Virus record (IMG/VR): IMGVR_UViG_2891456851_000002
Coordinates: 2,519 to 66,518 of that record
Strand: one strand, 5' to 3'
Length of the DNA: 64,000 nucleotides
DNA from: a virus
Lineage: Duplodnaviria > Caudoviricetes
Positions 4,360-29,569 of this stretch are shown here, in pieces. Numbering within the stretch: position 1 is the stretch's first letter; each line of letters starts with the position of its first letter. Below the pieces are notes generated by a model. It was not told the DNA's origin. It saw only the letters and a list, made by a program, of their open reading frames with translations, and did no database searches. The translations under genes were made by a program, and so were the position numbers.

Positions 4360-4788
4360 ATGACCCGCAAGCCCAAGCCCGCCCAGGGCTTCACCCCCGA
4401 AGAGTTCGAGGCCGTCGTCTCGATGATCCGCAGCGACGCCAGCCTGCGCGCCGACATCGAGACCATCACCGGCCAGAAGCTCGACGGCAAGACGCCCAGG
4501 CAGTTGTTCGACCTGTTCCGCGCCATCAACACGGCCGCCGAAGTGCAGAACGCCGTCGTCCGCTACGGACGCGCCCGGCAGGCAGTGCGGCAGACCCGCA
4601 TCGAACTGCAGGACCTCCCGCCGGCGGACATGCCGCCGACGCAGGCGGCGTACGTGCAGGGACTGCAGGAACGCCTCGACGTGGTCAAGGCCGAGAACCA
4701 GCAGTTGCGGGCCGCGAATGCCGCCCTGAGGGCCGGAACGGTCCACCCCATCCCCGCCCGCACCATCAAGGGAGAAGTTGCGTCATGA
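4360..4788 (+). CDS. Hypothetical protein translationally coupled to the RAMP-like gene
   Basis: RBS GAAGGAGG; ATGA overlap with 4785. Confidence 0.75.
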   Translation: MTRKPKPAQGFTPEEFEAVVSMIRSDASLRADIETITGQKLDGKTPRQLFDLFRAINTAAEVQNAVVRYGRARQAVRQTRIELQDLPPADMPPTQAAYVQGLQERLDVVKAENQQLRAANAALRAGTVHPIPARTIKGEVAS

Positions 4789-5522
4789 GCGCTCTCGACG
4801 TGTTCGGCGCATTCGGCGCCACCGACGAATTCCAGAGCTACTACGTGCACCTGCGCGTCATCGACAAGATCGTCGGTGGTATCCCGTCCAGCCCCAGTGT
4901 CATCAAGGGCTGGCTGAAGACCCGCATGGAGCTTGGGGACCGCGACCTGCAGGAGATGGTCGACAAGACCCTGGTCGAGCGGTTCCCCGACCGGCAGCCG
5001 TCCCCGGACGAGCTGGCCGACGCTCTGATGGAGACCGACGCCGCCCCCTCGGTGAACGGCTTCAAGCGCATCCCCGGCACTGGGGAACTCGCCTACGAGG
5101 GCCGGTGCATGAAGGCCGCGATCAAGGAGTGGGCCAACAGCGCCTACCCCGGCACGGAGTGGCCGGGCAAGGGCGACGTCGCGAAGGGCTTCCGTAAGGG
5201 CCTGATGAGCACGCTGGCGGAGCGCGTGTTCGTGGACGAGGTGTTCATCGGCCTCGGCGTGACGGAGCCGACGGGGGTGGAGGAGCGGATCAAGCACGTC
5301 ATGACCCCCCAGGGCCCCCGCTCCAGCATCAACCGGGTCGAGTACGTCCAGGGGGCCGAGCTCCACTTCACCCTGCTCGTGCGGGACGACTTCCTCCCCA
5401 TGCAGGCGTGGTCCCGCATCTGGCAGAGCGGCGAGCAGATCGGCATCGGCTCCGACCGGGGGCGCAGCGACGGACGCTTCGAGCTTCTCAAGTGGGAGCG
5501 CGGGGGGGCCGCCAATGCCTGA
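4785..5522 (+). CDS. Orphan RAMP/Cas7-like protein (Vipr-like candidate effector)
   Basis: N-terminal strand plus IVGGIP; central YEGRCMKAAIKE, resembling the RAMP PGSSxKGAxR motif; C-terminal G-rich loop GIGSDRGRSDGRF; no other cas genes nearby. Confidence 0.75.
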   Translation: MSALDVFGAFGATDEFQSYYVHLRVIDKIVGGIPSSPSVIKGWLKTRMELGDRDLQEMVDKTLVERFPDRQPSPDELADALMETDAAPSVNGFKRIPGTGELAYEGRCMKAAIKEWANSAYPGTEWPGKGDVAKGFRKGLMSTLAERVFVDEVFIGLGVTEPTGVEERIKHVMTPQGPRSSINRVEYVQGAELHFTLLVRDDFLPMQAWSRIWQSGEQIGIGSDRGRSDGRFELLKWERGGAANA

Positions 5523-5805
5523 CCTTCCCGCCTGGGCATGGGGCTGCTTCTACGGCCTCGCTGGGGCCGCGAACGCCACCTGGTACCTGCCTGAGCTGCG
5601 CCGCAACCGGGTCCTTCAGGGCCGGGTCGGCTCGCTCGCCGAGGTGCTGGAGCCGCTGTTCACGCCGGCGTTCGTCCGTGGCCTGTTCGTGACGTCGATG
5701 GTCCTCGCCTGGCCCGTGGCCCTGCTCGCTGCCCTGATCTGCGACGTGCCGGGCCACGGCAAAAACCTCACCGACGACGAGCGCACCGAGATCGAGCGCT
5801 CCTGA
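5515..5805 (+). CDS. Small membrane protein
   Basis: Two hydrophobic stretches; overlaps the end of the RAMP-like gene. Confidence 0.65.
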   Translation: MPDLPAWAWGCFYGLAGAANATWYLPELRRNRVLQGRVGSLAEVLEPLFTPAFVRGLFVTSMVLAWPVALLAALICDVPGHGKNLTDDERTEIERS

Positions 5806-5813
5806 AACGCGTA

Positions 5814-5838
5814 GGGCCCCAGCACACGGCTGGGGCCC
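5814..5838. terminator. Perfect 10-bp stem hairpin between the RAMP operon and the array
   Basis: GGGCCCCAGC-ACACG-GCTGGGGCCC. Confidence 0.7.
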
Positions 5839-5879
5839 CTCCCATCAACTGACTGTACCCGGAGGGTTCTGGTGAACGT

Positions 5880-6750
5880 CTGCGACGCCGCTCGTGCGGC
5901 TAGCCCATGCGACTACGCGAGCCTGTTCAGCCCTGCCTCCGCCTCGCGCCGACAGTCCACCCCACCGCCGTCCTGGCCCGACCTCGCCGACAAGCCCAAC
6001 CCTTCCTTCGCTTGCCGACAGTCCATCCCACGCCCTACCTCAGCGAGCCCCTCCGACATACCGACTCCGCACCGTCCGTGCCGCCCCGACAGGCCCAGCC
6101 CGGTCCTGCCGCTCGCCGACAAGCCAAGCCTCCGCCTGCCTAGCCACGGCGACATGCCAGGCCACGGCTTCCCTCAGCACGCCGACTATCCGCACCGGCA
6201 CGACTCCCGCCCTGCCGACGACCCGAGCCTTCTCAACCCTTGCCCCGCCGACAAGCCAAGTCTCCCCGAGACAGCCCATCACGCTCGACTAACCGATCCC
6301 TACCCACCTTCCCCGGCCGACGTCTCATGTGCCGACAAGCCGCACCGGACCCATCCCTCCCAACCCCGTGGCGACTATCCAGCCCGCGCCAGCCCTAGCC
6401 GACAGCCCAAACCAAGCCGAGACGTGCCGACATGCCACCCCCGCCGCAGACCAGCCCAGCCCGACATGCCTATTCCTGCCGCCCCCGCTCAAGCCCAACC
6501 GACATGCCATCCCTGCACACCAGCGCCCCGCCCCGACTCACGCCGACTCGCCTACCCGGGCCGTCACCGACCTCGCCACCCCATGCCTGTCCTCGCCGAC
6601 CAGCCATCCCAGCGCCTCCCGGCCCACGCCGACAAGCCAGCCCCACCCGGACCGGCCCGCCCCGACTACCCGTTCCCTGGCTCATCCCTGGGACATCCCA
6701 CACCCGCCGCGACATGCCTTCTCTGGCCCGTCCTAACCAGTCCGCACCCC
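5880..6750 (-). repeat. 5-nt-periodic GGN-NN array, about 24 units separated by a GTC anchor; candidate guide-RNA (vrRNA-like) array
   Basis: + strand CC recurs every 5 nt between (C/G)CGAC anchors, e.g. 5949, 5987, 6015, 6053, 6086, 6116, 6149, 6182, 6215, 6248, 6371, 6399, 6427, 6461, 6499, 6596, 6629, 6662; spacings mostly 28/33/38 = 3+5n. Confidence 0.9.
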
Positions 6751-6778
6751 TCCTCGTGACCACTGAAAGGAGGCCACT

Positions 6779-7165
6779 GTGAGCCCCTACCGCGTTCTCG
6801 TGACCGGGTCCCGCACCTGGCGGTCACCCAACGACCGCAAGACCCTCAGGGACGCCCTGGACGCCGTCCACACCGCGTTCCCGGACCTCGTCGTCGTCCA
6901 CGGCGCCTGCTCCCGCGGCGCGGACTTCCTCGCCCAGCGCTGGGCCGAGGACCGCAACCGGGCCGGCGCCAACATCACCGTCGAGCAGCACCCCGCGGAC
7001 TGGGACCGCTACCGGAAGGCGGCGGGGTTCCGCCGCAACGCCGAGATGGTTGCGACCCGCCCTGACTTGGTCCTCGCGTTCATCCGCAACGGCTCACCGG
7101 GTGCGACGCACTGCGCCGCCCTCGCTGAGAAGGCCGGCATTCCCGTCCGGAGGTGGTCGGCGTGA
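6779..7165 (+). CDS. DUF2493/YspA-like SLOG-family protein
   Basis: RVLVTGSR...VVHGACSRGAD...RRNAEMV...LVLAF...GATHC. Confidence 0.85.
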   Translation: MSPYRVLVTGSRTWRSPNDRKTLRDALDAVHTAFPDLVVVHGACSRGADFLAQRWAEDRNRAGANITVEQHPADWDRYRKAAGFRRNAEMVATRPDLVLAFIRNGSPGATHCAALAEKAGIPVRRWSA

Positions 7166-7545
7166 CCGGCCGCCGCATGCACATCGCCATCCAATGGCAG
7201 CTCATCGGCGGGGGCAGTGTCCTGCGCTGCAAGTGCGGCGAGTGGGAGAGCGACCCCACCCAGGCCGTGCGTGTGCAGCGGGCATCCCATCGGGCGCACC
7301 GCGTGCAGATGGGGGAGACCGTCGCCCCCGTCAAGCCCACCTTGGCGGAGCGTGTCGCGGCTGTGCGGGCCCTTCACCATCCGACCGAAGGCATGGGCTA
7401 CAACCCGGACGACGACCCCACCCCCGGCGCCTACGGGGACATCGCCAGGGTTTGCACCTCGTGCGGCACACACGACGAGTACGGGGTCCGCTGGCCGTGC
7501 CCGACGATCCGCGCCCTTGACGGCGAGCTGGGGGAGGCGTCGTGA
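7162..7545 (+). CDS. Hypothetical Zn-binding phage protein
   Basis: CKCG and CTSC motifs, WPCPT; coupled to the upstream gene. Confidence 0.6.
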   Translation: MTGRRMHIAIQWQLIGGGSVLRCKCGEWESDPTQAVRVQRASHRAHRVQMGETVAPVKPTLAERVAAVRALHHPTEGMGYNPDDDPTPGAYGDIARVCTSCGTHDEYGVRWPCPTIRALDGELGEAS

Positions 7546-7598: not shown

Positions 7599-7880
7599 TC
7601 AGGACTCGGCGGAGCGCGGCGCCGGCCGCGTCTTGCGCTTCGGCGGGGGCTTGAGCCCGTCCACCACGTCGGCGTCCTCCTGGATGCGCCGGACGTGCTC
7701 GGGCTCCCAGTCGAAGTGGCGGGCGATGTCCGCCTGCTTCACACCGTCAGCTCGCATCTGGCGAATGACGCGGCCGAACTCCAACCAGGCCGCGTTGACG
7801 ATGTCTTCCGCACGCTGCTCGGCGCGCTGGATCTCCGCGTACGCCGCATCGAGGGCTGCCATCTGCTCGGTCACCTCCAC
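7599..7880 (-). CDS. Small HTH DNA-binding protein
   Basis: GVKQADIARHFDWEPEHVRRI HTH-like segment; antisense to flanking genes. Confidence 0.7.
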   Translation of the reverse strand: MEVTEQMAALDAAYAEIQRAEQRAEDIVNAAWLEFGRVIRQMRADGVKQADIARHFDWEPEHVRRIQEDADVVDGLKPPPKRKTRPAPRSAES

Positions 7881-7894
7881 ATCATCACACCTCT

Positions 7895-8015: not shown

Positions 8016-9317
8016 GTGACCACCGTCTACGCGGACTTCCTCACCCGGAAACAACGCTCCCACCGGCCCGCGGGCCCAACTGTCGACATCACCGACGTCC
8101 ACCCGACACTGCACGAGTGGCAGCGCCGCATCGTCGCGTGGGCCGCGCGTACCGGGCGGGCCGCGATCTGGGCCGACACAGGCCTCGGGAAGACCTTCAT
8201 GCAACTCGAATGGGCCCGCCTGTCCGCCGACCGGTCCCTTGTGGTGGCGCCGCTCGCGGTATGTCAGCAGACCGTGCGGGAGGCCACCAAACTCGGCATC
8301 ACCGCCCACTATGTCCGCTCCGACACGGACGCGACCGGCCCGGGGGTGTGGGTCACCAACTACGAGATGACCCCGCACTTCGACCCGGCCGGGTTCGGCG
8401 CCGTCGTGCTGGACGAGTCGTCCATCCTCAAGGACTTCACCTCTAAGACCCGCGACCGGATGATCAGCGAGTTCGCCGGGGTGCCTCGCCGCCTCGCGTG
8501 CACGGCAACGCCGGCCCCGAACGACGTGGCCGAGCTCGCCAACCACGCTGAGTTCCTCGGCGCCGCCACCCGCCGGGAGATGCTGTCGACGTACTTCGTG
8601 CACGACCAGTCCGGGTGGCGGGCCAAGGGGCACGCCCGCGGGCCGATGTTCCGGTGGATGGCCTCATGGGCGATCGCGATCCGCCGGCCGTCTGACCTCG
8701 GTTACAGCGACGACGGGTATGACCTGCCCGGCCTTGAGATCGTGCCGCACCTGTTGCCTGTCGACGTCGTCCCCGATGGGCAGTTGTTCGCGACCGACCT
8801 GGGCGGGGTGGGTGGCAGGGCCAGGGTCCGCAAGGCCACCCTCGACGCCCGGTGTGCCCGCGCCGCGGAGCTGGTTGCCGCCGAACCCGACGAGCCGTGG
8901 GTGTTGTGGTGCGGCCTGAACGACGAAGCTGACCGCCTCGCAGAACTGATTCCAGGCGCGGTCAACGTCCACGGGTCCCTGACCCCGGAGGAGAAAGCCG
9001 AACACCTACTGGGCTTCGCCGATGGGCAGATCCGGTACCTCATCACCAAGCCCGGGATCGCCGCCTACGGCCTCAACTGGCAGCACTGCGCCCGCATGGC
9101 GTTCGTCGGCCTGTCCGACTCCTACGAGCAGTACTACCAGGCGATTCGCCGCTGCTACCGCTACGGGCAGACCCGGCCCGTCCACGCCCACATCGTGCTG
9201 TCCCAGCTCGAAGGGCAAATCGCATCCAACATCGCGCGCAAGGAAAACGAGGCCGCCGGCATCGTCGGCGGCCTCGTGTCCGAGATGCGGGCCTCCGCCA
9301 CGTGGGGCGCCGCATGA
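8016..9317 (+). CDS. SNF2-like/SF2 helicase
   Basis: ADTGLGKT (Walker A), LDESS (DExx), TATP, QAIRRCYRYGQ. Confidence 0.88.
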   Translation: MTTVYADFLTRKQRSHRPAGPTVDITDVHPTLHEWQRRIVAWAARTGRAAIWADTGLGKTFMQLEWARLSADRSLVVAPLAVCQQTVREATKLGITAHYVRSDTDATGPGVWVTNYEMTPHFDPAGFGAVVLDESSILKDFTSKTRDRMISEFAGVPRRLACTATPAPNDVAELANHAEFLGAATRREMLSTYFVHDQSGWRAKGHARGPMFRWMASWAIAIRRPSDLGYSDDGYDLPGLEIVPHLLPVDVVPDGQLFATDLGGVGGRARVRKATLDARCARAAELVAAEPDEPWVLWCGLNDEADRLAELIPGAVNVHGSLTPEEKAEHLLGFADGQIRYLITKPGIAAYGLNWQHCARMAFVGLSDSYEQYYQAIRRCYRYGQTRPVHAHIVLSQLEGQIASNIARKENEAAGIVGGLVSEMRASATWGAA

Positions 9318-9697: not shown

Positions 9698-9733
9698 GGG
9701 TGTACCCACACCATAGCCGGGTGTACCTACACC
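9698..9733. promoter_or_regulatory. Two 15-bp operator-like repeats, 21 bp apart
   Basis: GGGTGTACCCACACC and GGGTGTACCTACACC, each containing the inverted pair GGTGT...ACACC. Confidence 0.65.
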
Positions 9734-9756
9734 GTCAACCCCTTCAGGAGTACCCC

Positions 9757-10749
9757 ATGACCCTGGACATCGACGCCGGATACATCACCGACGACGCCAC
9801 CGGCGACGGCTGGCGCCTCATGCTGGGCGACTCCTGCGAGCGCCTCGCCGAGATCGCCGACCACACCGTGGACCTGTCGGTGTGCTCCCCGCCGTTCGCC
9901 CAGCTCTACAACTACTCGCCCTCGCCGCGGGACCTGTCCAACTCCCGGGACCGGGGCGAGTTCTTCGAGCACTACAGCTTCATCATCCGCGAACAGCTCA
10001 GGGTCACCCGACCAGGCCGCCTGTCCATCGTCCACGTACAGCAGATCGCCCTGCAGAAGGCCCTGCACGGGGTGATCGGCCTGACCGACTTCCGCGGCGA
10101 GGTGATCCGCGCGCACGAAGAGGCAGGCTGGATCTTCCACGGCGAGGTCACCATCGACAAGGACCCGCAGGCGCAGGCCATCCGCACCAAGGCGCACGCC
10201 CTGATGTTCGTCACCAAGGACCGCGACGCCGCGGGTCTGCGGCCCGCCCTCGCCGACTACCTGCTGATGTTCCGCGCCCCTGGCGACAACCAGACGCCCG
10301 TTAAGACCGACGTGTCCAACGACGAGTGGATTCAGTGGGCTCGCCCGATCTGGCCCGGATGCGGCGACGTCGAGGCGATGCAGGCGATGGAGGACCTCGG
10401 GCTGATCCTGCCCCGCCCCGCCTGGTACGGCATCCGAGAGACGAACACCCTGAACACCAGGGTCGCCAAGGAAGACGCCGACGAGCGACACATCTGCCCC
10501 CTGCAACTCGACCTGATCGAACGGTGCGTCCGCCTGTGGTCGAGCCCCGGCGAGCTCGTGCTGTCTCCCTTCGCCGGCATCGGGTCCGAGGGCTACGTCT
10601 CCGTCATGCAGGGCCGTCGTTTCGTGGGGTGCGAGCTCAAGCCGTCGTACTGGCGGACCGCGGTGACCAACCTTCGGTTGGCGGAGCGGCAGGTGTCGAC
10701 TCCGTCGCTGTTTGACGACGAGTTCGACCTGGCCAGCGGGGACCGCTGA
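9757..10749 (+). CDS. Amino (N4-C/N6-A) DNA methyltransferase, beta class
   Basis: Catalytic SPPF precedes the SAM-binding VLSPFAGIGSEG; HICPLQ motif. Confidence 0.9.
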   Translation: MTLDIDAGYITDDATGDGWRLMLGDSCERLAEIADHTVDLSVCSPPFAQLYNYSPSPRDLSNSRDRGEFFEHYSFIIREQLRVTRPGRLSIVHVQQIALQKALHGVIGLTDFRGEVIRAHEEAGWIFHGEVTIDKDPQAQAIRTKAHALMFVTKDRDAAGLRPALADYLLMFRAPGDNQTPVKTDVSNDEWIQWARPIWPGCGDVEAMQAMEDLGLILPRPAWYGIRETNTLNTRVAKEDADERHICPLQLDLIERCVRLWSSPGELVLSPFAGIGSEGYVSVMQGRRFVGCELKPSYWRTAVTNLRLAERQVSTPSLFDDEFDLASGDR

Positions 10750-10815: not shown

Positions 10816-11850
10816 GTGGCCGGAAGCTTCGCCAAGATCTACAACCGGATCTGGGCAGACGCCGACTTCCGCTCGCTGACACGCAATCAGCAGTGGCTGT
10901 ACTTCACGCTGATCAGTCAGCCGGAACTCACCTTCGCGGGCGTCGTCACCACGACGGATCGGCGTCTGACCGGCTGCGCTGTCGACTTCACCGCGCCCGA
11001 ACTGAAGGCGGACCTCGCCGTGCTGCACGAGCGCCGCTACGTGGTGGTCGATCACGAGCACGACGAGATCCTTGTCCGCACATACATCAAGTGGGACGAC
11101 GCCTGGAAGATCCCCAACGTCCTGAAGAGCATCATCCGGGACGCCTCGATGGTCAGGTCTCAGGCGATCCGGGCGACGCTCGCCGAGGAGTTCGCCCGGC
11201 TGCCGGTCGCTGGCCTATCTGGCAAGAAGGCCGACGAGATGCGGGAGTCGATCGGAAGGGTTATCGAAACCCTTAGGCCAATGGTTCCCGTAAGGGTTAG
11301 CCCAACCCTTCCCGGAACGGTTCCCGGAACCCCTGGCGAACCCTTGGCGGAACCCTTCCAGCAACCCTCGGGCGAACCCATAGGCCAACCCTCCGTTGTT
11401 GTTGCTGTTGTAGGTGAAGAAGTTAAAGACCGTACTTCGGTAGAACCCGGCAACGATCCCGCCGCCCCGGCTGAGGCCGACGCCTCCGGCGACGGAGTCT
11501 TGATCCACCTCGAAGCCGCCCAGAAGAAACCCACCTTCCAGCCCGGCAGCGACCAGGACCCCGCCTTCGTCGCGTTCTGGAAGGCCTACCCCCGCAAGGT
11601 CGACAAGGGCCACGCCCGCGCCGCCTGGGTCAAAGCCGTCAAGCGCGCCGACCCGCAGGCGATCGTCGCCGCGGCTGAGCGGTTCCGGGACAACCCGATG
11701 CGGCAGGCCCGGGGCATCGAGTACACCCCGCACCCCACGACGTGGCTAAACGGGGAGCGCTGGAACGACGAGACCGCCACGAGCAATGACGACCACTGGC
11801 GGTGGGACGCCGTGCAGGAGGTCGCACCGAGGGAGTTCAACCACCGATGA
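10816..11850 (+). CDS. Phage replication initiator (replisome organizer-like)
   Basis: FAKIYNRIWAD N-terminus; C-terminal FWKAYPRKVDK...PHPTTWLNGERW; lies upstream of a DnaB-like gene. Confidence 0.75.
   Translation: MAGSFAKIYNRIWADADFRSLTRNQQWLYFTLISQPELTFAGVVTTTDRRLTGCAVDFTAPELKADLAVLHERRYVVVDHEHDEILVRTYIKWDDAWKIPNVLKSIIRDASMVRSQAIRATLAEEFARLPVAGLSGKKADEMRESIGRVIETLRPMVPVRVSPTLPGTVPGTPGEPLAEPFQQPSGEPIGQPSVVVAVVGEEVKDRTSVEPGNDPAAPAEADASGDGVLIHLEAAQKKPTFQPGSDQDPAFVAFWKAYPRKVDKGHARAAWVKAVKRADPQAIVAAAERFRDNPMRQARGIEYTPHPTTWLNGERWNDETATSNDDHWRWDAVQEVAPREFNHR
11257..11392. repeat. Iteron-like AACCC(T) repeats inside the initiator gene (putative origin)
   Basis: AACCCN at 11328, 11339, 11351, 11363, 11375 and 11387 (11-12 bp period), plus inverted AGGGTT copies upstream. 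Confidence 0.65.
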
Positions 11851-13100
11851 CCGACGACTTCCGGGCCCTGCCGCACGACATCGAGGCCGAACAGTGCGTC
11901 CTCGGCGCGTGCCTGATCTCGCCGAACGCCGTAGCTGTCGCCCTCGGGCACCTCGGCGCCGACGACTTCTACCGCCCCGTCCACCAGGAAATCTTCATCG
12001 CGATCGCGGATCTGCGCCGCCGCGGCGAACCGATCGACGTCGTGTCGGTGCGCGCCGAGCTGGAGCGCATCGGCAAGCTCGACCCGGCCGGCAAGAAAGC
12101 GATGCTCCTGCACGACCTGTCGGCCGTGGTGCCGACCGCTGCCAACGCCGGGTTCTACGTCAACCGCGTCCGGATGCTCGGGTCGAAGCGGCTCGCCGCG
12201 CTGGAATTCTCCCGCCTGGGCGAGATGGCCTACGAGGCGGACACCACCCCCGAGGACCTGGTCCAGGCCGCCGAGGATTCCCTGAGCTTGCTCCGCCGCA
12301 CTGGCGACGACGGCGAGGTGGCCGGGCTGTCCACGATGGGCTCGTTCGTGGACGAGACCGACGAAGACCACGACTGGCTGATCCCCGGCGTGCTGGAGCG
12401 GATGGACCGCGTGATCGTCGTAGCGTCCGAAGGCGCTGGGAAGACCACGTGGGCGCGACAGATCACCGTGATGGGCGCCGCCGGGCTGCACCCGTTCTCG
12501 TGGGGCACCCGCATCCCCCCGTTCCGGACGCTGTACCTCGACCTGGAGAACCCGCCCGCCCTGATCCGCCGCAAGGCCCGCCACCTCGTGAGCCTCGGCC
12601 GGAACGCCGCCGGATGGGACGACGACCGCTGCTGGCGCTGGACCATCCCAGGCGGGATCGACCTGCGCAAACCGCACGACCAGTACCTCGTGGACCGCGT
12701 CATCGAGCAGGTCCGCCCGGACTTCGTGGCGATGGGCCCGCTGTACAAGGCGTTCCTCGAATCGGGGGAGAAGGCCGAGACGATCAACGGGCAGGTCGCC
12801 CGCGTCCTCGACGGGTTCCGGCAGCGACACGGCGTCGCCCTGTGGCTGGAGACTCACGCCCCGATGGAGCAGTCCGGGCAGCGGTCTCTCCGCCCTCTCG
12901 GGTCCGGTGTGTGGCAGCGCTGGCCCGAGTTCGGCCTGGCCCTCCGCAAAGACCCGAACAACCCAACCCAGGTGTTCGTCGAGCGGTTCCGAGGCGACCG
13001 CGACGAACGCGCCTGGCCCCACCGCTTGCAGCGCTCCTCCCCGTGGCCGTGGCAGGCCGTCTGGGACGGCGGCTTCCCCGTCGAGGAAGCCAGCGCCTAA
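11847..13100 (+). CDS. DnaB-like replicative helicase (DnaB N-terminal domain plus RecA/AAA_25 domain)
   Basis: LPHDIEAEQCVLGACL...DFYRPVHQEIF; Walker A ASEGAGKTT; LYLDLEN. Confidence 0.88.
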   Translation: MTDDFRALPHDIEAEQCVLGACLISPNAVAVALGHLGADDFYRPVHQEIFIAIADLRRRGEPIDVVSVRAELERIGKLDPAGKKAMLLHDLSAVVPTAANAGFYVNRVRMLGSKRLAALEFSRLGEMAYEADTTPEDLVQAAEDSLSLLRRTGDDGEVAGLSTMGSFVDETDEDHDWLIPGVLERMDRVIVVASEGAGKTTWARQITVMGAAGLHPFSWGTRIPPFRTLYLDLENPPALIRRKARHLVSLGRNAAGWDDDRCWRWTIPGGIDLRKPHDQYLVDRVIEQVRPDFVAMGPLYKAFLESGEKAETINGQVARVLDGFRQRHGVALWLETHAPMEQSGQRSLRPLGSGVWQRWPEFGLALRKDPNNPTQVFVERFRGDRDERAWPHRLQRSSPWPWQAVWDGGFPVEEASA

Positions 13101-13933: not shown

Positions 13934-15205
13934 ATGACCCTGCGCATCGGCAGCATCTGCACCGGCTACGGCGGCCTGGACATGGCCGTCCACCAGGTGT
14001 GCGGCGGCGAACTCGCCTGGGTCGCCGACATCGACCCCGGCGCGAACCAGATCCTCGCCCACCGCTACCCGCACCTGCCCAACCTGGGCGACATCACCAC
14101 CGTCGACTGGTCGCAGGTCGAACCGGTCGACATCTTCACCGGGGGTTTCCCCTGCCAGCCCGTGTCTGCGGCCGGCCAGCGAAAGGGCGTCACCGATGAC
14201 CGATGGCTCTTCGACGACATCTGCTCGGCTCTTGGCCGAATGGTCACACGCCCCCGGCTGCTCGTGTTCGAAAACGTCCTTGGGCTGCTGTCTGCAAACG
14301 GCGGGGACGCTATGGCCCGTGTCATTCAGGGACTGGCCGCGCTCGGCTACGTGGGGTCCTGGCGGACTGTACGAGCTTCCGACGCAGGCGCCCCCCACCG
14401 CCGGGAGCGGGTGTTCATCGTCGCTTGGCTCGCCGACGCCACGGGCGACGGACACGAACGGGGCGGGCGCGCATGGGACGGGCGGCCCGGATCTGCGGAC
14501 GGCGGTCACGCTGTTGCCGACGCCACGGGCGACGGACACGAACGGGGCGGGCGCGCATGGGACGGGCGGCCCGGATCTGCGGACGGCGGTCACGCTGTTG
14601 CCGACGCCACGGGCGACGGACGGTACGAAGGGGGGGCCGAACCAACGAGGCTCGTCAGGCGACCTGATGCTGCCCTCAGCGGTGATGGCGTTCCTGCCGA
14701 CGCCGGCGGCCGGGAACTTCAACGACGGGGAGAGCCTGTCGAACTGGGAGACCCGGAGGGAGACGCAGAAGGCTCGGGGGATCAACGGCAACGGGATGGG
14801 CATGCCGCTGGGCATCGCGGTGCAGAAGCTGCTTCCGACGCCGAGAGCCTCGGACACGGGGACGCCGGGCCGACGGGCGACAGATGGCTTCCGGCCGCCG
14901 CTGTCGCAGGTGATCTTCCGGGAGACGTCAACTGGGGACAGTACGAGCCCGCGATCCGCCGATGGGAGCAGCTCACCGGCCGCCCCGTCCCTCGACCCAC
15001 CGAGCCCGGACGCAACGGCGAGCGCCTGAGCCCGCGCTTCGTCGAGTGGATGCAAGGCCTGCCCGCCGGCTGGGTGACGGACGTCCCCGGCTTGGCGCGT
15101 AATGCGCAGCTCAAGGCTCTCGGTAACGGGGTCGTGCCAGCCCAGGCGGCGTACGCCCTTCGCCTGCTGCTGGCCCGCGCCGGCGTTTCGGGGGTGGCGG
15201 CGTGA
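13934..15205 (+). CDS. C5-cytosine DNA methyltransferase
   Basis: Motif I (ICTGYGG), motif IV GFPCQ, motif VI ENV, motif VIII RERVF, motif X QLKALGNGV. Confidence 0.92.
   Translation: MTLRIGSICTGYGGLDMAVHQVCGGELAWVADIDPGANQILAHRYPHLPNLGDITTVDWSQVEPVDIFTGGFPCQPVSAAGQRKGVTDDRWLFDDICSALGRMVTRPRLLVFENVLGLLSANGGDAMARVIQGLAALGYVGSWRTVRASDAGAPHRRERVFIVAWLADATGDGHERGGRAWDGRPGSADGGHAVADATGDGHERGGRAWDGRPGSADGGHAVADATGDGRYEGGAEPTRLVRRPDAALSGDGVPADAGGRELQRRGEPVELGDPEGDAEGSGDQRQRDGHAAGHRGAEAASDAESLGHGDAGPTGDRWLPAAAVAGDLPGDVNWGQYEPAIRRWEQLTGRPVPRPTEPGRNGERLSPRFVEWMQGLPAGWVTDVPGLARNAQLKALGNGVVPAQAAYALRLLLARAGVSGVAA
14196..15029 (+). CDS. Overlapping +1-frame ORF with five (L)LPTP modules, candidate target-recognition subunit
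   Basis: Repeats such as LLPTPRATD...DLRTAV; over the same span the main frame is low-complexity; true start unclear. Confidence 0.55.
   Translation: MTDGSSTTSARLLAEWSHAPGCSCSKTSLGCCLQTAGTLWPVSFRDWPRSATWGPGGLYELPTQAPPTAGSGCSSSLGSPTPRATDTNGAGAHGTGGPDLRTAVTLLPTPRATDTNGAGAHGTGGPDLRTAVTLLPTPRATDGTKGGPNQRGSSGDLMLPSAVMAFLPTPAAGNFNDGESLSNWETRRETQKARGINGNGMGMPLGIAVQKLLPTPRASDTGTPGRRATDGFRPPLSQVIFRETSTGDSTSPRSADGSSSPAAPSLDPPSPDATASA
14432..14621 (+). repeat. 84-bp tandem duplication (2 full copies plus a partial third)
   Basis: GCCGACGCCACGGGCGACGGAC at 14432, 14516 and 14600. Confidence 0.95.
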
Positions 15206-19786: not shown

Positions 19787-19968
19787 GCCTCGACGACGGC
19801 ATGGCCACCGCACCTGACCTGGCCCGCATGTACGGCGTCCCTATCGGCACCATCTACCGGTGGGCCAGCATCGACGGGTGGGAACGCACCAGCCCGCGCC
19901 ACCGCCCCGTCCGCTACCGTAGGGGCGATGCGGACAAGTCGTACTTCGACCGCCGCGCGTCGGCTTGA
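19783..19968 (+). CDS. Small HTH DNA-binding protein
   Basis: DLARMYGVPIGTIYRWAS. Confidence 0.75.
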   Translation: MSLDDGMATAPDLARMYGVPIGTIYRWASIDGWERTSPRHRPVRYRRGDADKSYFDRRASA

Positions 19969-20040
19969 CACCGTGACCTGGGGCGAAGCAGACTAATGCG
20001 AAGCTAGATCACGTATCGGCCCGGCCCAAACCGCCGGGCC
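19965..20040 (+). promoter_or_regulatory. Putative late promoter followed by a hairpin
   Basis: TTGACA at 19965, CAGACT 18 nt later; GGCCCGGC/GCCGGGCC stem 20018-20040 followed by TTCGTCATT. Confidence 0.55.
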
Positions 20041-20060
20041 TTCGTCATTCCCGGGGGCGG

Positions 20061-20336
20061 TCAGTCCTCGACCCCGACCACAAGCCATTCCCCGGCCTGC
20101 TCGGTGAGCTCAACCACGGCGTCCCGTCGTGCGCCTCGCGCCCGCACCCGCCAATGGCGGACGGTCAACTCCCCGATGGCCTTGCCCCGGTTCTCGTCCA
20201 CCCACCACGGCGCCTGTTCCTCCCAGTGCGGGCCCAGCACCTCCACCACCAGGTAGGTGCGCCCCCACGCCTGGATCCGCACCGGTGACCCCGACTGGTC
20301 GACCTCCACCCGGGCGGGTTCGTCATAGCGGCGCAC
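20061..20336 (-). CDS. DUF6504-family protein
   Basis: RRYDEPARVEV...WGRTYLVVEVLGPHWEEQAPWW...RHWRVRA. Confidence 0.7.
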   Translation of the reverse strand: MRRYDEPARVEVDQSGSPVRIQAWGRTYLVVEVLGPHWEEQAPWWVDENRGKAIGELTVRHWRVRARGARRDAVVELTEQAGEWLVVGVED

Positions 20337-21184: not shown

Positions 21185-21607
21185 GTGCCGCCCCGCCGCC
21201 GCCTCAACCCCGTCCCCGACAAGCAACGCGAACGCTCGCCCGACCTGCGGGACGCCGTGAAGGCAGCGATCGACGGCATGACGTGGCTGTCGGCCAGCGA
21301 CAAGGCCTTGGCCGTGCTGGCGTTGCGGCAGGCCGAGGAGATCGAGAAGGCCGTCGACCGCGCCGAGGAACTCGCCGATCTGCGCCGCGAGTTCGCCGAC
21401 GACATGGTCATGCTCAAGCGGCTGCAGAAGCTTGAGGCGATGTGCGAGGTCACCAAGACCGTCGGCTGGTTGGGCCCTCAACTGCAGGGCGTGCTGCGTG
21501 ACCTCGGCGGTACGCCGGCGGCGCGTAAGGCGATGAAGGACGATCAGCCTGTGGGAGGTCGTCTTGCGCAGCTCCGCGCCGACGCTGCTGGGAAGCACGA
21601 CTCCTAG
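21185..21607 (+). CDS. terS: Terminase small subunit
   Basis: Position; LGGTPAARKA...RLAQLR actinophage pattern. Confidence 0.8.
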   Translation: MPPRRRLNPVPDKQRERSPDLRDAVKAAIDGMTWLSASDKALAVLALRQAEEIEKAVDRAEELADLRREFADDMVMLKRLQKLEAMCEVTKTVGWLGPQLQGVLRDLGGTPAARKAMKDDQPVGGRLAQLRADAAGKHDS

Positions 21608-23144
21608 GATCTGGACCCGCCCCCTGGTGACCGGCAGGCCGGGGCCGTGCGGCTGCGGCTGCGCGCTGACACCGAAGACGTCGATGGGGTTTTCCGCGGC
21701 GGAGTTCGCCGAGGAGGTCCTCGGGATTGAGCTGCTGCCGTGGCAGCGGTTCCTGCTGATCCATGCGCTGGAGCTCCGCTCCGACGGGCGTTTCCGGTTC
21801 CGTACGGTGCTGGTTCTCGTCGCGAGGCAGAACGGCAAGACGAGCATCGTCGAGGTCAAGAACCTGTGGAAGATGTTCGTCCTGCAGGTCCCCCTAGTCA
21901 TCGGGACGGCGCAGAACCTCGACATCTCCGAGGAGTCGTGGGAGAAGGCCGTCGACATCGTCGAGGCCGTGCCCGAGCTCGCCGCCGAGGTGGCCCACGT
22001 GGACCGGACGAACGGCAAGAAAGCGCTGCGGCTGACGCACGGGTCCCGCTGGAAGATAGCCGCCGCGTCACGGAGGGGTGGACGCGGACTATCAGGCGAC
22101 GACGTCAACCTTGACGAGCTGCGTGAGCACCAGACGTGGGACGCCTGGGGTGCGGTGACCAAGACGACGATGGCCCGCCGTAATCCGCAGGTGTGGGCGT
22201 TCTCCAACGCGGGCGACAACAAGTCGGTGGTGCTGAACGACCTGCAGGAGAAGGGTCGCGCTGCAGCCGAGGACCCGTCGGCGGATCCGTCGCTGGGGTT
22301 CTTCGAATGGTCGGCGCCGGACGACGTGGAGTGCACCTGTGGGCGCCCGGACGGCACCCACACCATGCGGTGCCGGTTGAGGGACCGGGAGGCGTGGGCG
22401 CTGGCGAATCCGTCGCTGGGGTACACAGTGACGGTCGAGGCGCTGGAGTCCGCCCTGGCGACGGACCCCGAGCCGATCTTCCGCACTGAGTGCCTGTGCC
22501 AGCGGGTGCCGGACCTGGTGCCGCAGTGGTCGGTCATCCCGCAGGCCCCATGGGATGTGCTGGCCGACCCGCACTCGCGGCCAGCAGGGAAGGTCGCGTT
22601 CGCCGCGGATGTCAACCCCGAGCGGACGCACGGCGCGATCGGCGTATCCGGTCTACGGAACGACGGGCTGCGGCATGTCGGCCTCACGATGAACGCCGAC
22701 GGTGTGCTAGATCATCGGCCCGGCACGGACTGGATGGTCGACCGCCTGGCCGAACTCAACGCCAAGTGGGAGCCGGTCGCTGTGGTGGTGGACCCGAACA
22801 GCCCGGCAGCCTCACTGATTGAGCCGCTCAGGCTGCGCGGGGTCGAGGTGGTGACTCCGTCGCGGCAGGAGTGCGCGCAGGCGTGCGCGCAGTTGTATGA
22901 CGCGGTGGTGCCGCCGCCGGAGAGCGACGGGTTCGCACCGGCGCTGCGGCACCTGGGACAGGGATCCGTCGCCGCGGCGCTGGCTGGTGCGGCCAAGCGC
23001 GAGTTGGGGGACGGTGCCTGGGCCTGGGCACGCAAAGGCCTTTCGGTCGACATCAGCCCGCTCGTTGCCATCACTCTCGCTGCTTGGGGCCATGCCACTC
23101 GGGCCCATGTCGCGGCTGTCGAGCCGTACGCGTTCTGGGACTGA
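21564..23144 (+). CDS. terL: Terminase large subunit
   Basis: LLPWQ; VARQNGKT (Walker A); LDELRE; FRTECLCQ; DISPLVA. Confidence 0.93.
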   Translation: MRSSAPTLLGSTTPRIWTRPLVTGRPGPCGCGCALTPKTSMGFSAAEFAEEVLGIELLPWQRFLLIHALELRSDGRFRFRTVLVLVARQNGKTSIVEVKNLWKMFVLQVPLVIGTAQNLDISEESWEKAVDIVEAVPELAAEVAHVDRTNGKKALRLTHGSRWKIAAASRRGGRGLSGDDVNLDELREHQTWDAWGAVTKTTMARRNPQVWAFSNAGDNKSVVLNDLQEKGRAAAEDPSADPSLGFFEWSAPDDVECTCGRPDGTHTMRCRLRDREAWALANPSLGYTVTVEALESALATDPEPIFRTECLCQRVPDLVPQWSVIPQAPWDVLADPHSRPAGKVAFAADVNPERTHGAIGVSGLRNDGLRHVGLTMNADGVLDHRPGTDWMVDRLAELNAKWEPVAVVVDPNSPAASLIEPLRLRGVEVVTPSRQECAQACAQLYDAVVPPPESDGFAPALRHLGQGSVAAALAGAAKRELGDGAWAWARKGLSVDISPLVAITLAAWGHATRAHVAAVEPYAFWD

Positions 23145-27659: not shown

Positions 27660-28971
27660 CCCTCGTGAAGACGAACTGGCTGAACGCTGCGACATCGCTT
27701 CAGGTCACGGAACCGGAGGAGGTTCCGGGCGCCACGAAGCTCGGGCTGCAGGTGAGCGCCTCAGGCAACCCCAGCTCCGCACTCGTGTGGCTGCAGGGGT
27801 CGATCGACGGGGTGAACTGGCACAACCTGCTGGGGCTGGACGCGGCCGGATCGCCGAAGCTCGGTTTCGTCGGTACCTCGACAGGCGTGGTGGTCAGGTA
27901 CGTACGGCTGGAACTTTCGGCGCTGACCGGTGGGACGTCACCCGCGGTGAGCGCGAGCCTCGTTGCCACCGAAGGAGTCTGACGGTGGTGACGGCGGCGC
28001 GGGTCACGGCCGGGAATGCCGCCGTGGCCCTGAACACGGCCAGCACCTCTGGCCAGAAGCTGACGATCAAAAATACGGACACCACCAACGGCGTCGACCT
28101 TGGCGGGCCAGGAGTGACGGCGGGCACGGGGTTCCCTCTGCCCAACGGCGCTCAGGTCACGGTCGAACTGGCGCCCGGCGACGTCGTGTACGCCATTCGC
28201 TCCGCAGGAGCGGACGTCGTGCTCGCGGTCCTGCGAACCTGAAGGAGAAGACATGCCTGTCATGGAGGGCACCCGGGGTCTGAAGGAGGCCCGCGGCGAG
28301 TACGACTTCGCCGTCGACGGCGGCGCGGTCGGCACGATCGTGCTGCGGTCGGCGCCGGGCGACAGCAACGGCAACGACATCCCGAACGGTTCGCTCATCA
28401 TGGGCGGCTACATCGAGGTCGACACCATCCCGACCTCCGGCGGCGCCGCGACCATCGCCGTCGCCTCCGAGGGTGCCGGCGATCTGCAGACCGCTGCCGC
28501 CATCTCCGGCCCGCCCTGGTCGACGACCGGTCGTAAGGCGATCACGCCGGTCTTCACGGCCGCGACCGGTGTGAAGACCACCGCACGCAGGAACCTGGCC
28601 ATCGCTGTTGCGACGGCGGCGCTGACGGCGGGCAAGTTCCGCGTCGTCGTCTTCTACCGGTAGGAGGGGTGATGGCTCTGCAGTTCGTGAAGCGGCCGGA
28701 CGGCGACGCCGGGCATGTCATCGCGACGGCCCGGCTCTGCCGCACAGAAGACGACCGCCTCGTCCCCGACAGCGACCCGGACGCCCGCTGGCTGTACTGC
28801 ACGCCCGGAACGCCGATCCCGCGGGCTGAGGCGGAGCGGTACGGCCTACTGAAGGCCCAGGCCGACGAGCCGGAGCCCGATGCGGGCGGCGACGAGTCGG
28901 GCGGCGGGCCTGCCGCCAAGCGGGCGCGGCGCCCGGCCGATAAGGCGCGCGCTCCGCAGGGGGAAAAGTAG
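27656..28971 (+). CDS. Four small putative head-associated proteins (27656-27982, 27988-28242, 28253-28663, 28672-28971)
   Basis: Beta-rich Gly/Thr/Ala sequences in the late operon; good RBSs. Confidence 0.6.
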
Positions 28972-28984
28972 GCGGGGGTGAGTC

Positions 28985-29569
28985 GTGCCCCGTAAGAACT
29001 TGTGCCCGAACCCGTGTTTGACGAACGATGTCGCGGGTTGGGGCGGCGGCGGCACGCCGGTCCGTACGGACGTGTCCGGGCTCGGGTTCGCCCGGCAGTG
29101 GGCGGCCAGGTACGACACGGGGTCGTTCGTTTTGTCCCCGCAGGGTGCGGTCACTCCGGGCCTGACCTACACGGTGTCGGTCTATCTCCGCCCGGAGTCG
29201 TTCCCGATCAGCGGGACCGTGTGGATTGAGTTTTTGGATTCCGGCGGCGGGTCTCTGACGTTCGTCAACGGCGCGTTCTCGGCCCCGGATGGGGTGGTCA
29301 CGCGGATCAGCATGACCGGCACCGCCCCGACGGGCGCTGTCACCTGCTGGCTGGTGGTGACCGGCGAGAACTACGCGGTGAACGCCACCAGCTACACGAT
29401 GTGCCTCATCGAGCAGTCCGCCAGTGCGGGGACCTACTTCGACGGCTCGTCGCCGGGTGCCGTCTGGGACGGCACCCCGGGCAACAGCACGTCCACCCTC
29501 CCCGATGCCGCCGCCGCGCCGCCGCCGCAGTCGCCGTATCGGCGCCGCCGCCACCTGTTGATCCGCTGA
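28985..29569 (+). CDS. Carbohydrate-binding-like virion protein
   Basis: NLCPNP...VTPGLTYTVSVYLR...TAPTGA...YFDG pattern of CBM4/9-like phage domains. Confidence 0.55.
   Translation: MPRKNLCPNPCLTNDVAGWGGGGTPVRTDVSGLGFARQWAARYDTGSFVLSPQGAVTPGLTYTVSVYLRPESFPISGTVWIEFLDSGGGSLTFVNGAFSAPDGVVTRISMTGTAPTGAVTCWLVVTGENYAVNATSYTMCLIEQSASAGTYFDGSSPGAVWDGTPGNSTSTLPDAAAAPPPQSPYRRRRHLLIR

What the first reader, a model, noticed from the sequence alone, without database searches (positions are those of the whole stretch)
4785..6750. Candidate phage RNA-guided system: orphan RAMP/Cas7-like gene plus a non-CRISPR periodic array
Seen: a 245-aa protein with RAMP-like signatures (IVGGIP; YEGRCMKAAIKE; C-terminal G-rich loop GIGSDRGRSDGRF) sits about 360 bp upstream of an 870-bp array with a strict pentamer register. 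The window has no cas1/cas2/cas6/cas8 genes and no repeat-spacer CRISPR. Known: Cas7/RAMP proteins polymerise along guide RNA with a fixed nucleotide step per subunit, so a constant-plus-variable pentamer is the expected footprint of one subunit per 5 nt. Inference: the array encodes about 24 guides, each carrying 5-7 variable dinucleotides that together specify a gapped target, probably DNA of competing phages or elements. This fits my recollection of the recently described phage VIPR systems (Vipr protein plus GGY/NN RNAs). I cannot confirm membership here, so this could be a new member or variant.
Basis: partly seen in the sequence, partly recalled or inferred. Interest (0 to 1): 0.96.

Follow-up and report, generated by a model that had tools for sequence, protein, structure and literature searches.

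The report
Prophage VIPR system, antisense guide array
A prophage carries a small Cas7-like protein gene next to an ~870-base array of five-base repeats, which makes it a genuine new example of the VIPR RNA-guided DNA-silencing systems first described in 2026 preprints, so it is real but not a new kind of system.

Summary
ORF 4785-5522 folds with high confidence as a Cas7/Csm3-like RAMP. Region 5881-6770 is the only 5-nt-periodic stretch in the 64-kb window.

On the minus strand the array reads as GG(C/G)-NN pentamers, grouped in about 23 units of modal spacing 33 nt. Each unit ends in GTCGG, and that final GG doubles as the first GG of the next unit. The register is therefore reset at every unit and is not strict.

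The gene-array pairing is conserved in 32 of 33 homologous loci, down to 33% protein identity. A profile of the protein family matches a profile of the tested phage SUSP1 Vipr family (hhalign 92.6%, E 4.7e-7). The record is a provirus with no Cas1 match and no CRISPR-like repeat.

This fits VIPR (bioRxiv 10.64898/2026.04.26.720920), probably the class with "staggered" overlapping arrays. It differs from the tested type II systems:
- the G-rich strand is always antisense to the gene;
- guides are short, about 6 NN;
- there are no per-guide tails;
- the protein is longer;
- a different partner gene lies upstream.

Neither the transcribed strand nor the targets could be settled. Gapped-match searches showed no excess over shuffled controls.

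This scan has flagged VIPR loci many times, including this same family in another genome. Verdict: new member of a known kind, moderate-to-low interest.

The parts
4360..4788 (+). Conserved upstream partner gene (142 aa). All-helical, with a coiled-coil C-terminal half. Its stop overlaps the vipr start by 4 nt. Candidate accessory (vap-like) gene of unknown function.
   Evidence: A homologous ORF abuts the RAMP gene in 22-23 actinobacterial loci at 40-86% identity. AF2 model: pLDDT 74, four helices. No Pfam, PHROG or NCBIfam hit and no significant fold match.
4785..5522 (+). Vipr-like RAMP protein (245 aa). RRM core, a long beta-hairpin (residues ~164-189) that I read as the likely thumb, and a G-rich loop at residues 220-231.
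5515..5805 (+). Small ORF (96 aa) with one predicted membrane helix (~residues 56-78). It is an insertion between vipr and the hairpin and not part of the core system.
   Evidence: Absent in the closest relatives L009 and L010, where the vipr stop is followed directly by the same hairpin context. Hydrophobic segment. No family hit.
5814..5838 (.). Perfect 10-bp GC-rich hairpin between the vipr operon and the array. Terminator-like, with the T-richer tail on the minus strand.
   Evidence: Similar hairpins occur at this place in 10 of 29 non-redundant loci, with 2-4 T in the 10-nt minus-strand tail and 0-2 T on the plus strand.
5882..5905 (.). Conserved element at the vipr-proximal end of the array: GCGACGCCG-Y-loop-R-CGGCTAGCC. 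It has a 5-bp stem, and GGCTAGCC is a palindrome. It is the 3' terminal element if the array is read on the minus strand, or a leader if read on the plus strand.
   Evidence: Found at the same place in 25 non-redundant loci. The closing stem pair is either T-A or C-G and never mismatched. It occurs exactly once in each of 10 whole provirus records, with 0 hits for the reversed control pattern. Coordinates.
5906..6760 (-). vrRNA-like guide array. About 23 GTCGG-terminated units (31 GTCG anchors in all). Each unit is about 6 pentamers GG(C/G)-NN plus GTCGG, overlapping the next unit by 2 nt. Modal spacing 33 nt. Many units are degenerate.
   Evidence: The strand is assigned from the GGY rule of the literature and from the hairpin tails. 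It has not been shown.
7599..7892 (-). Small minus-strand HTH-like gene, a facultative neighbour of the array.
   Evidence: 54% identical to the minus-strand ORF lying 66 nt beyond the array in L002. Relatives sit within about 2 kb beyond the array, always on the minus strand, in 7 of 29 loci.

Best explanation
This is a VIPR-type RNA-guided system carried by a prophage of a Streptosporangiaceae-like actinobacterium.

Shown:
- a Cas7-like RAMP protein that is homologous at profile level to the tested Vipr of phage SUSP1;
- a tightly linked non-CRISPR array of GG(C/G)-NN pentamers;
- conservation of this pair across the family;
- proviral context without a Cas1 match or a CRISPR-like repeat.

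Inferred by analogy with the published SUSP1 work:
- The array is transcribed, most likely from the minus strand (about 70:30), convergent with the gene.
- The transcript is cut or read as units of about 33-35 nt.
- One Vipr protomer binds each pentamer, hiding the GG(C/G) bases and exposing the NN pairs.
- Six or seven protomers, about one helical turn of the published filament, present about 12 specifying bases. These pair with double-stranded DNA while skipping every third base, and block transcription of a rival phage or other mobile element.
- Because each guide is short, specificity probably depends on many guides (about 23 here) acting on the same target element.
For: Fold:
- AF2 model pLDDT 88.7, pTM 0.80.
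- Foldseek PDB top hits are all Csm3/Cas7.
- The profile's weak best PDB sequence hits are Csm4 G-loops.
- Sub-threshold Pfam hits to Cas6_C and RAMPs occur in 5 family members.
- BFVD best hits are viral RAMP-like proteins, including archaeal-virus proteins.

Homology to Vipr:
- hhalign of 73 family members against 32 SUSP1-type Viprs gives 92.6%, E 4.7e-7, over 136 columns from helix 1 to the C-terminus.
- The SUSP1 locus itself was recovered, and it shows GGT-NN repeats beside a 195-aa protein with the published D177-W178-R179.

Array:
- The anchored logo of 83 units has G at 0.8-0.9, G at 0.6-0.77, C/G, N, N.
- Units overlap by 2 nt, which recalls the 'staggered arrays with overlapping vrRNAs' of the paper.

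Linkage and context:
- 32 of 33 loci have the array immediately downstream of the gene, down to 33-35% identity, including Microcystis phage Mae-JY09.
- Provirus record; phage early genes and terminase nearby.

Minus-strand reading:
- The GGY rule.
- Flanking hairpins carry their T-rich tails on the minus strand.
- Minus-strand HTH genes lie beside the array in 7 loci.
Against: - No RNA data, so neither expression nor strand is shown.
- The G-loop residues that contact G1 and G2 in SUSP1 (D177, W178) are not kept. Only R179 and R181 equivalents are (R225, R227).
- The third pentamer position is only weakly C-biased. Between close relatives it changes almost as often as the NN positions: 10.4% against 11.8-13.6%.
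- A direct HMM search of the SUSP1 genome with the family profile found nothing, so the relationship is remote.
- No excess of gapped matches appeared under any skip rule: 274 kb of loci, 750 kb of ten related proviruses (real 7 against decoy mean 6.1), and one 10-NN guide in 301 family genomes (6 hits against 8 control hits at 2 mismatches).
- Twelve specifying bases are marginal for specificity in a 9-10 Mb host.
- In L014, L016 and L028 a strong hairpin with a minus-strand T-run sits only about 40 nt before the first unit. That leaves little room for a minus-strand promoter.
Confidence: 0.85

Rival explanations
1. Same system, but the guides are read from the gene's sense strand as C-rich NN-(G/C)CC RNA. 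They would be co-transcribed with vipr or start from a promoter in the proximal element. This would be a mirror-image repeat code, not the published GGY code.
For: - All genes flanking the array are on the plus strand.
- In L003, L014, L015, L016 and L018 the conserved proximal element starts 10-30 nt after the vipr stop, as a leader would.
- Distal hairpins in L014, L016 and L028 could be bidirectional terminators where a plus-strand array transcript meets a minus-strand HTH gene.
- A possible sixth stem pair of the proximal hairpin is G.T on the plus strand in most loci. By my hand count from the listing that is about 9 of 14, and it would be A.C on the minus strand.
- G1 and G2 contact residues of SUSP1 Vipr are not conserved.
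- Non-canonical trinucleotides are reported for other VIPR clusters.
Against: - Every tested or described VIPR uses G-containing fixed bases.
- Hairpins between vipr and the array in 10 loci would stop co-transcription, and their T-rich tails face the minus strand.
- The type II actinobacterial controls show that the G-rich strand is the RNA strand when it is unambiguous.
Confidence: 0.2
2. The array is a protein-coding gene: ORF 5872-6759 (+), 295 aa, encoding a proline-rich repeat protein.
For: A plus-strand frame stays open over 86-100% of the array in about two thirds of loci. A GGAGGG-GTG start is present. The modal unit spacing of 33 is a multiple of 3.
Against: - Codon-position GC is flat (0.72/0.66/0.73), against about 0.7/0.5/0.9 for real genes here.
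- The period is 5, not 3.
- Most unit spacings are not multiples of 3.
- Shuffling unit order keeps a similarly long open frame: window 876 against mean 721, p 0.23; median p 0.29 over 30 arrays. The open frame therefore follows from the scarcity of stop codons on a C-rich strand.
- Gene callers left the region empty in L001-L003.
Confidence: 0.03
3. The array acts as DNA, not RNA. It would be a tract of protein-binding sites or structured DNA (iteron, centromere-like or curvature element) that merely travels with the RAMP-like gene.
For: The 33-bp spacing is close to three helical turns. The GGCTAGCC palindrome and hairpins flank the array. No transcript evidence exists.
Against: - Binding-site arrays conserve the whole site. 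Here only G1-G2 and the GTCG anchor are fixed, and the rest varies freely.
- The strong strand asymmetry (GC skew about -0.36 over 6001-7000 in the window, -0.19 to -0.39 in homologous loci) and the partner's RAMP fold both point to single-stranded RNA.
- The homologous SUSP1 family is shown to use such tracts as RNA.
Confidence: 0.04

Closest known systems
VIPR systems (Vipr + vrRNA + vap), bioRxiv 10.64898/2026.04.26.720920 and .720927; most likely the class with 'staggered' overlapping vrRNA arrays (fig. S18 legend)
   Same: - A lone RAMP protein with RRM core and G-loop, and a beta-hairpin I read as the thumb.
- No Cas1 match and no CRISPR-like repeat.
- Phage or prophage location.
- An adjacent tract of G-G-x-N-N pentamers.
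- Head-to-tail units in which the end of one is the start of the next.
- Many guides per locus.
   Different: I could not see the paper's figures or tables, so I cannot say which of the seven types this is, or whether this clade was included. The overlap here is 2 nt (GG), while the legend says 1 nt. The third position is C/G-biased rather than a strict pyrimidine.
Type II VIPR of Escherichia phage SUSP1 (KT454805.2, vipr 28474-29061) and its actinobacterial relatives (Rhodococcus locus L050)
   Same: Profile-level homology from helix 1 to the G-loop. The G-x-G-x-x-R-x-R...G-R-F loop is kept. The repeat period is a pentamer. The locus is small.
   Different: - SUSP1 Vipr is 195 aa; this protein is 245 aa, with a helical insert (residues ~37-82).
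- Type II guides have 9-16 repeats, each followed by a structured 3' tail, and lie on the gene's strand, with vap downstream.
- Here there are about 6 repeats per unit, no per-unit tail, and one terminal hairpin element per array.
- Here the G-rich strand is antisense to the gene in 32 of 32 arrays.
- Here the conserved partner gene lies upstream and is unrelated.
CRISPR-Cas class 1 backbone proteins (Csm3/Cmr4/Cas7, Csf2)
   Different: No CRISPR repeats, no Cas1 match, no large or small subunit partners seen nearby. The periodicity is 5 nt rather than 6.

Membership tests
VIPR system | Sequence relationship to experimentally characterised Vipr proteins | tested here: met
   Profile-profile hhalign A2 against A3: 92.6%, E 4.7e-7, 136 columns. 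Profile against the single SUSP1 protein: E 0.0066. A direct HMM scan of the SUSP1 genome found nothing, so the relationship is remote.
VIPR system | Adjacent non-CRISPR tract of YNNGG / GGY-NN pentamers, at least 4 in a row | tested here: met
   On the minus strand 73% of the array lies in runs of at least 4 in-register pentamers. Logo. Position 3 is only weakly C-biased, closer to the paper's 'NNNGG' variant.
VIPR system | Gene and array conserved together across relatives | tested here: met
   32 of 33 loci, including those at 33-47% identity. One array per provirus, lying beside the gene.
VIPR system | Viral or proviral context without cas genes or CRISPR array | tested here: met
   IMG/VR provirus record. 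Erf, HNH, helicase, DnaB and terminase genes nearby. No Cas1 match. No CRISPR-like repeats. Other cas families were not searched one by one.
VIPR system | Accessory vap gene next to vipr | tested here: inconclusive
   A conserved helical 142-aa partner lies upstream, with no recognisable DNA-binding fold. A minus-strand HTH gene lies beyond the array in 7 of 29 loci.
VIPR system | Array transcribed into vrRNAs that co-purify with Vipr | not testable with these tools
   No RNA data. Promoter scans were uninformative. Rfam gave no match.
VIPR system | Targets recognised by NN pairs with a 1-nt skip | tested here: inconclusive
   No excess over decoys in 274 kb, in 750 kb of related proviruses, or for one long guide in 301 genomes. 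The host genome and its other prophages are not held.
Type II VIPR (SUSP1 class) | vrRNAs of 9-16 repeats, each with a structured 3' tail, on the same strand as vipr | tested here: not met
   Units have about 6 NN and no per-unit tail. The G-rich strand is antisense. Type II controls behave as published.
Type II VIPR (SUSP1 class) | G-loop residues D177/W178 that read G1 and G2 | tested here: not met
   The aligned positions are S223/D224 here and A/x in the family consensus. Only R225 and R227 match R179 and R181.
CRISPR-Cas (type III/IV Cas7) | CRISPR repeat-spacer array and partner cas genes | tested here: not met
   No Cas1 match. No repeat-spacer array. No Pfam RAMP hit above threshold.

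The most novel reading that the evidence does not exclude
This actinobacterial prophage clade is a distinct VIPR type with a different reading logic. One possibility is that the guides are the C-rich sense-strand RNA, a mirror NN-(G/C)CC code read by a Vipr that has lost the published G-binding residues. The other is that the antisense array yields one-helical-turn guides of only about 12 specifying bases, which work only collectively, by tiling one target element with dozens of guides.
Probability: 0.2. Interest if true: 0.65.

Novelty: new member of a known kind. Interest (0 to 1): 0.35.

Why it matters
VIPR is a very recent class of programmable RNA-guided DNA binders, and only type II members have been tested. 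This clade has 671 representative protein clusters at 50% identity with E <= 0.001. It shows a compact alternative layout: dense overlapping units, short guides, an array antisense to the gene, one shared terminal hairpin, and a different partner gene.

If the short guides are functional, they raise a clear question about how 12 specifying bases give specificity. They may also point to a minimal guide format. As a genome-annotation matter, this tract should not be called as the 295-aa ORF that spans it.

Tried and rejected
1. Pfam, PHROGs, NCBIfam and PDB sequence searches with the single protein gave nothing.
2. Megablast of the locus against phage records gave no match.
3. An HMM search of the SUSP1 genome with the family profile gave nothing. 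The link appeared only at profile-profile level.
4. Rfam gave no family, and no hammerhead between units.
5. Sigma-70 promoter and terminator scans of the window, L016, L018, L024 and L004 did not settle the strand.
6. Target search found no enrichment for any skip rule. One perfect 12/12 match was seen: a guide of the sibling provirus G304 against the DnaB-like helicase gene of this window (12684-12700), with the skipped bases on codon third positions, while G304 lacks that gene version. It falls within chance expectation, so I do not claim it.
7. A 10-NN guide in 301 family genomes gave only 2-mismatch hits, 6 against 8 for the reversed control.
8. The coding reading of the array was rejected.
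9. Substitutions between sibling arrays are not concentrated on NN relative to position 3. Positions 1-2 could not be tested fairly, because my register assignment requires G there.
10. The fold of the upstream partner had no significant match.
Full report
**What is there**

The window is 64 kb of a 66.5-kb IMG/VR provirus record, about 70% G+C. Nearby phage genes include:
- an Erf-like annealing protein (447-1364);
- an HNH endonuclease (1708-2178);
- a helicase (8016-9317);
- a methyltransferase (9700-10749);
- a DnaB-like helicase (11802-13100);
- the large terminase (21537-23144).

Its start overlaps the stop of a 142-aa ORF (4360-4788) by 4 nt. Its stop overlaps the start of a 96-aa ORF (5515-5805). 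A perfect 10-bp hairpin follows (5814-5838), then the periodic region.

**The array**

Autocorrelation peaks at lags 5, 10 and 33. The lag-5 excess is 6.9 sd above shuffles, and no other part of the window comes close. GC skew over 6001-7000 is -0.365.

Read on the minus strand and anchored on GTCG, 83 units from four loci give a clear logo. G is at 0.80-0.90, G at 0.59-0.77, C or G follows, then N, N, repeated every 5 nt for at least six pentamers. The GTC of the anchor sits in register as a degenerate GGY.

The typical unit is seven pentamers: six GG(C/G)-NN plus GTCGG. The last GG is also the first GG of the next unit. This gives the 33-nt spacing and a register shift at each junction.

The window has 23 GTCGG anchors and 31 GTCG anchors in all, against 7.8 expected. 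Many units are irregular: only 9 of 30 spacings are exactly 5k+3. The array is therefore real, but 'strict' overstates it.

**The protein**

A search of 1.84 billion representatives found 671 clusters at E <= 0.001. The close relatives are 'hypothetical proteins' of Microbispora, Nonomuraea, Streptosporangium, Actinomadura and allies.

With a 73-sequence alignment, AlphaFold2 gives pLDDT 88.7 and pTM 0.80. Structural comparisons agree:
- All top Foldseek PDB hits are Csm3/Cas7 subunits of type III and VII complexes, at E about 1e-7.
- In the viral model library the best hits are phage and archaeal-virus RAMP-like proteins, at E 1e-12 to 1e-4.

The loop GIGSDRGRSDGRF lies between the last helix and last strand, as in RAMPs. 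The family profile's only PDB sequence hits, weak ones, are Csm4 G-loops.

**Is it a Vipr?**

VIPR systems are described in four 2026 preprints. They comprise a minimal RAMP (Vipr), guide RNAs made of GGY-NN pentamers, and a vap gene. They occur mostly in phages and prophages. NN pairs read DNA while skipping one base per repeat. Seven types are defined, some with 'staggered arrays with overlapping vrRNAs'.

I located the reference locus in phage SUSP1: a 195-aa protein with D177-W178-R179, flanked by GGT-NN tracts on its own strand. A profile of 32 of its relatives matches the profile of the present family at 92.6% probability, E 4.7e-7. The match runs over 136 columns, from helix 1 through the beta-hairpin region to the G-loop.

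The relationship is remote. An HMM scan of the SUSP1 genome finds nothing. The two residues that read G1 and G2 in SUSP1 are not conserved here, while the two arginines are.

**Linkage**

In 32 of 33 homologous loci a pentamer-periodic tract follows the gene directly. These loci come from assemblies, IMG/VR, GTDB genomes and one isolated phage. The tract is always C-rich on the gene's strand, with skew -0.19 to -0.39. This holds at 33-47% protein identity, in Microcystis phage Mae-JY09, L022 and L024. Those loci also keep the GTCG-G unit grammar.

Each of ten whole proviruses has one such array, beside the gene. G309 also has a second flagged region of a different repeat type.

As a control, type II Vipr loci in Streptomyces and Rhodococcus show the published layout. 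There the G-rich tracts lie on the gene's strand, and each guide is followed by a conserved tail. The antisense layout here is therefore a true difference from type II.

**Ends of the array**

At the gene-proximal end every actinobacterial locus has GCGACGCCG-Y-loop-R-CGGCTAGCC. The closing stem pair switches between T-A and C-G. The element occurs once per provirus in 10 of 10 records.

Hairpins between gene and array (10 loci) and beyond the array (L014, L016, L028) carry their T-richer tails on the minus strand. A small minus-strand HTH gene lies beyond the array in 7 of 29 loci. In the window it is at 7599-7892.

**Which strand is the RNA?**

This is not settled.

For the minus strand:
- the GGY rule;
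- the orientation of the hairpin tails;
- the neighbouring minus-strand genes.

For the plus strand:
- all flanking genes are plus;
- in some loci the proximal element follows the stop codon at once;
- the distal terminators leave little room for a minus-strand promoter.

I put it at about 70:30 for minus.

**Not coding**

A 295-codon frame spans the array, but several points argue against a gene:
- codon-position GC is flat;
- the period is 5;
- shuffling unit order keeps similar open frames.

**Targets**

The skip pattern is symmetric, so target searches do not depend on the RNA strand. Three searches gave no excess of perfect gapped matches for any skip length:
- 121 units against 274 kb;
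- 130 units against 750 kb of ten related proviruses (real 7, decoy mean 6.1);
- one 10-NN guide in 301 family genomes.

One match fits the published pattern but lies within chance. It is a guide of sibling provirus G304 on this phage's helicase gene, with the skipped bases at wobble positions.

The host genome is not held, so this result is inconclusive and does not count against the model.

**Partner genes**

The upstream 142-aa gene is conserved with vipr in 22-23 loci. It is helical with a coiled coil and has no fold match. The 96-aa membrane ORF is an insertion, absent in the closest relatives.

**Verdict**

The kind has been known since 2026. This scan has noted it in at least 142 genomes, including this same family with the same antisense array.

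It differs from the tested type II systems in layout, guide length and G-loop residues. It probably belongs to the 'staggered array' class that the discovery paper mentions. I rate it a new member of a known kind.

Noticed in passing
window 5515-5805: A 96-aa ORF with one hydrophobic helix is inserted between the vipr stop and the hairpin. The closest relatives (L009, L010) lack it and join the stop codon directly to the same hairpin context. It may be a moron-like membrane protein.
   Followed up: partly
window 12684-12700 (DnaB-like helicase gene): A 6-NN guide of the sibling provirus G304 (L010) matches this site 12 of 12, with the skipped bases on codon third positions (TAC CTC GTG GAC CGC GT). 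G303 has the same site, and no homologous site was found in G304. This is compatible with inter-phage targeting but lies within chance expectation.
   Followed up: yes
window 7599-7892 (-): A minus-strand HTH-like gene, 54% identical to the ORF directly beyond the array in L002. Here it is separated from the array by two plus-strand genes (the SLOG/YspA gene 6779-7165, and 7153-7545), which look like an insertion.
   Followed up: partly
window 11304-11392: Two to three copies of a ~35-nt AACCC-containing repeat lie about 400 nt upstream of the DnaB-like helicase gene. They may be origin iterons.
   Followed up: no
window 14432-14621: A perfect 84-bp tandem duplication (2.3 copies, 100% identity).
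   Followed up: no
L050:4137-4700 (Rhodococcus, type II VIPR): Five GGC-NN guides each end in a conserved tail containing GGCGGTTCGATTCCGCC, a tRNA T-arm-like hairpin. This differs from the pseudoknot tail described for SUSP1.
   Followed up: no
G309 (provirus of L017) 19891-20260: A second periodic, C-rich region far from the vipr gene. It is built on repeated CCGTACGG palindromes, not GTCG units, so it is probably a different element.
   Followed up: no
L021:1901-5760: This viral contig carries three pentamer arrays totalling about 2.8 kb downstream of its vipr homologue, with longer units (39-44 nt). It is the largest array set seen.
   Followed up: no
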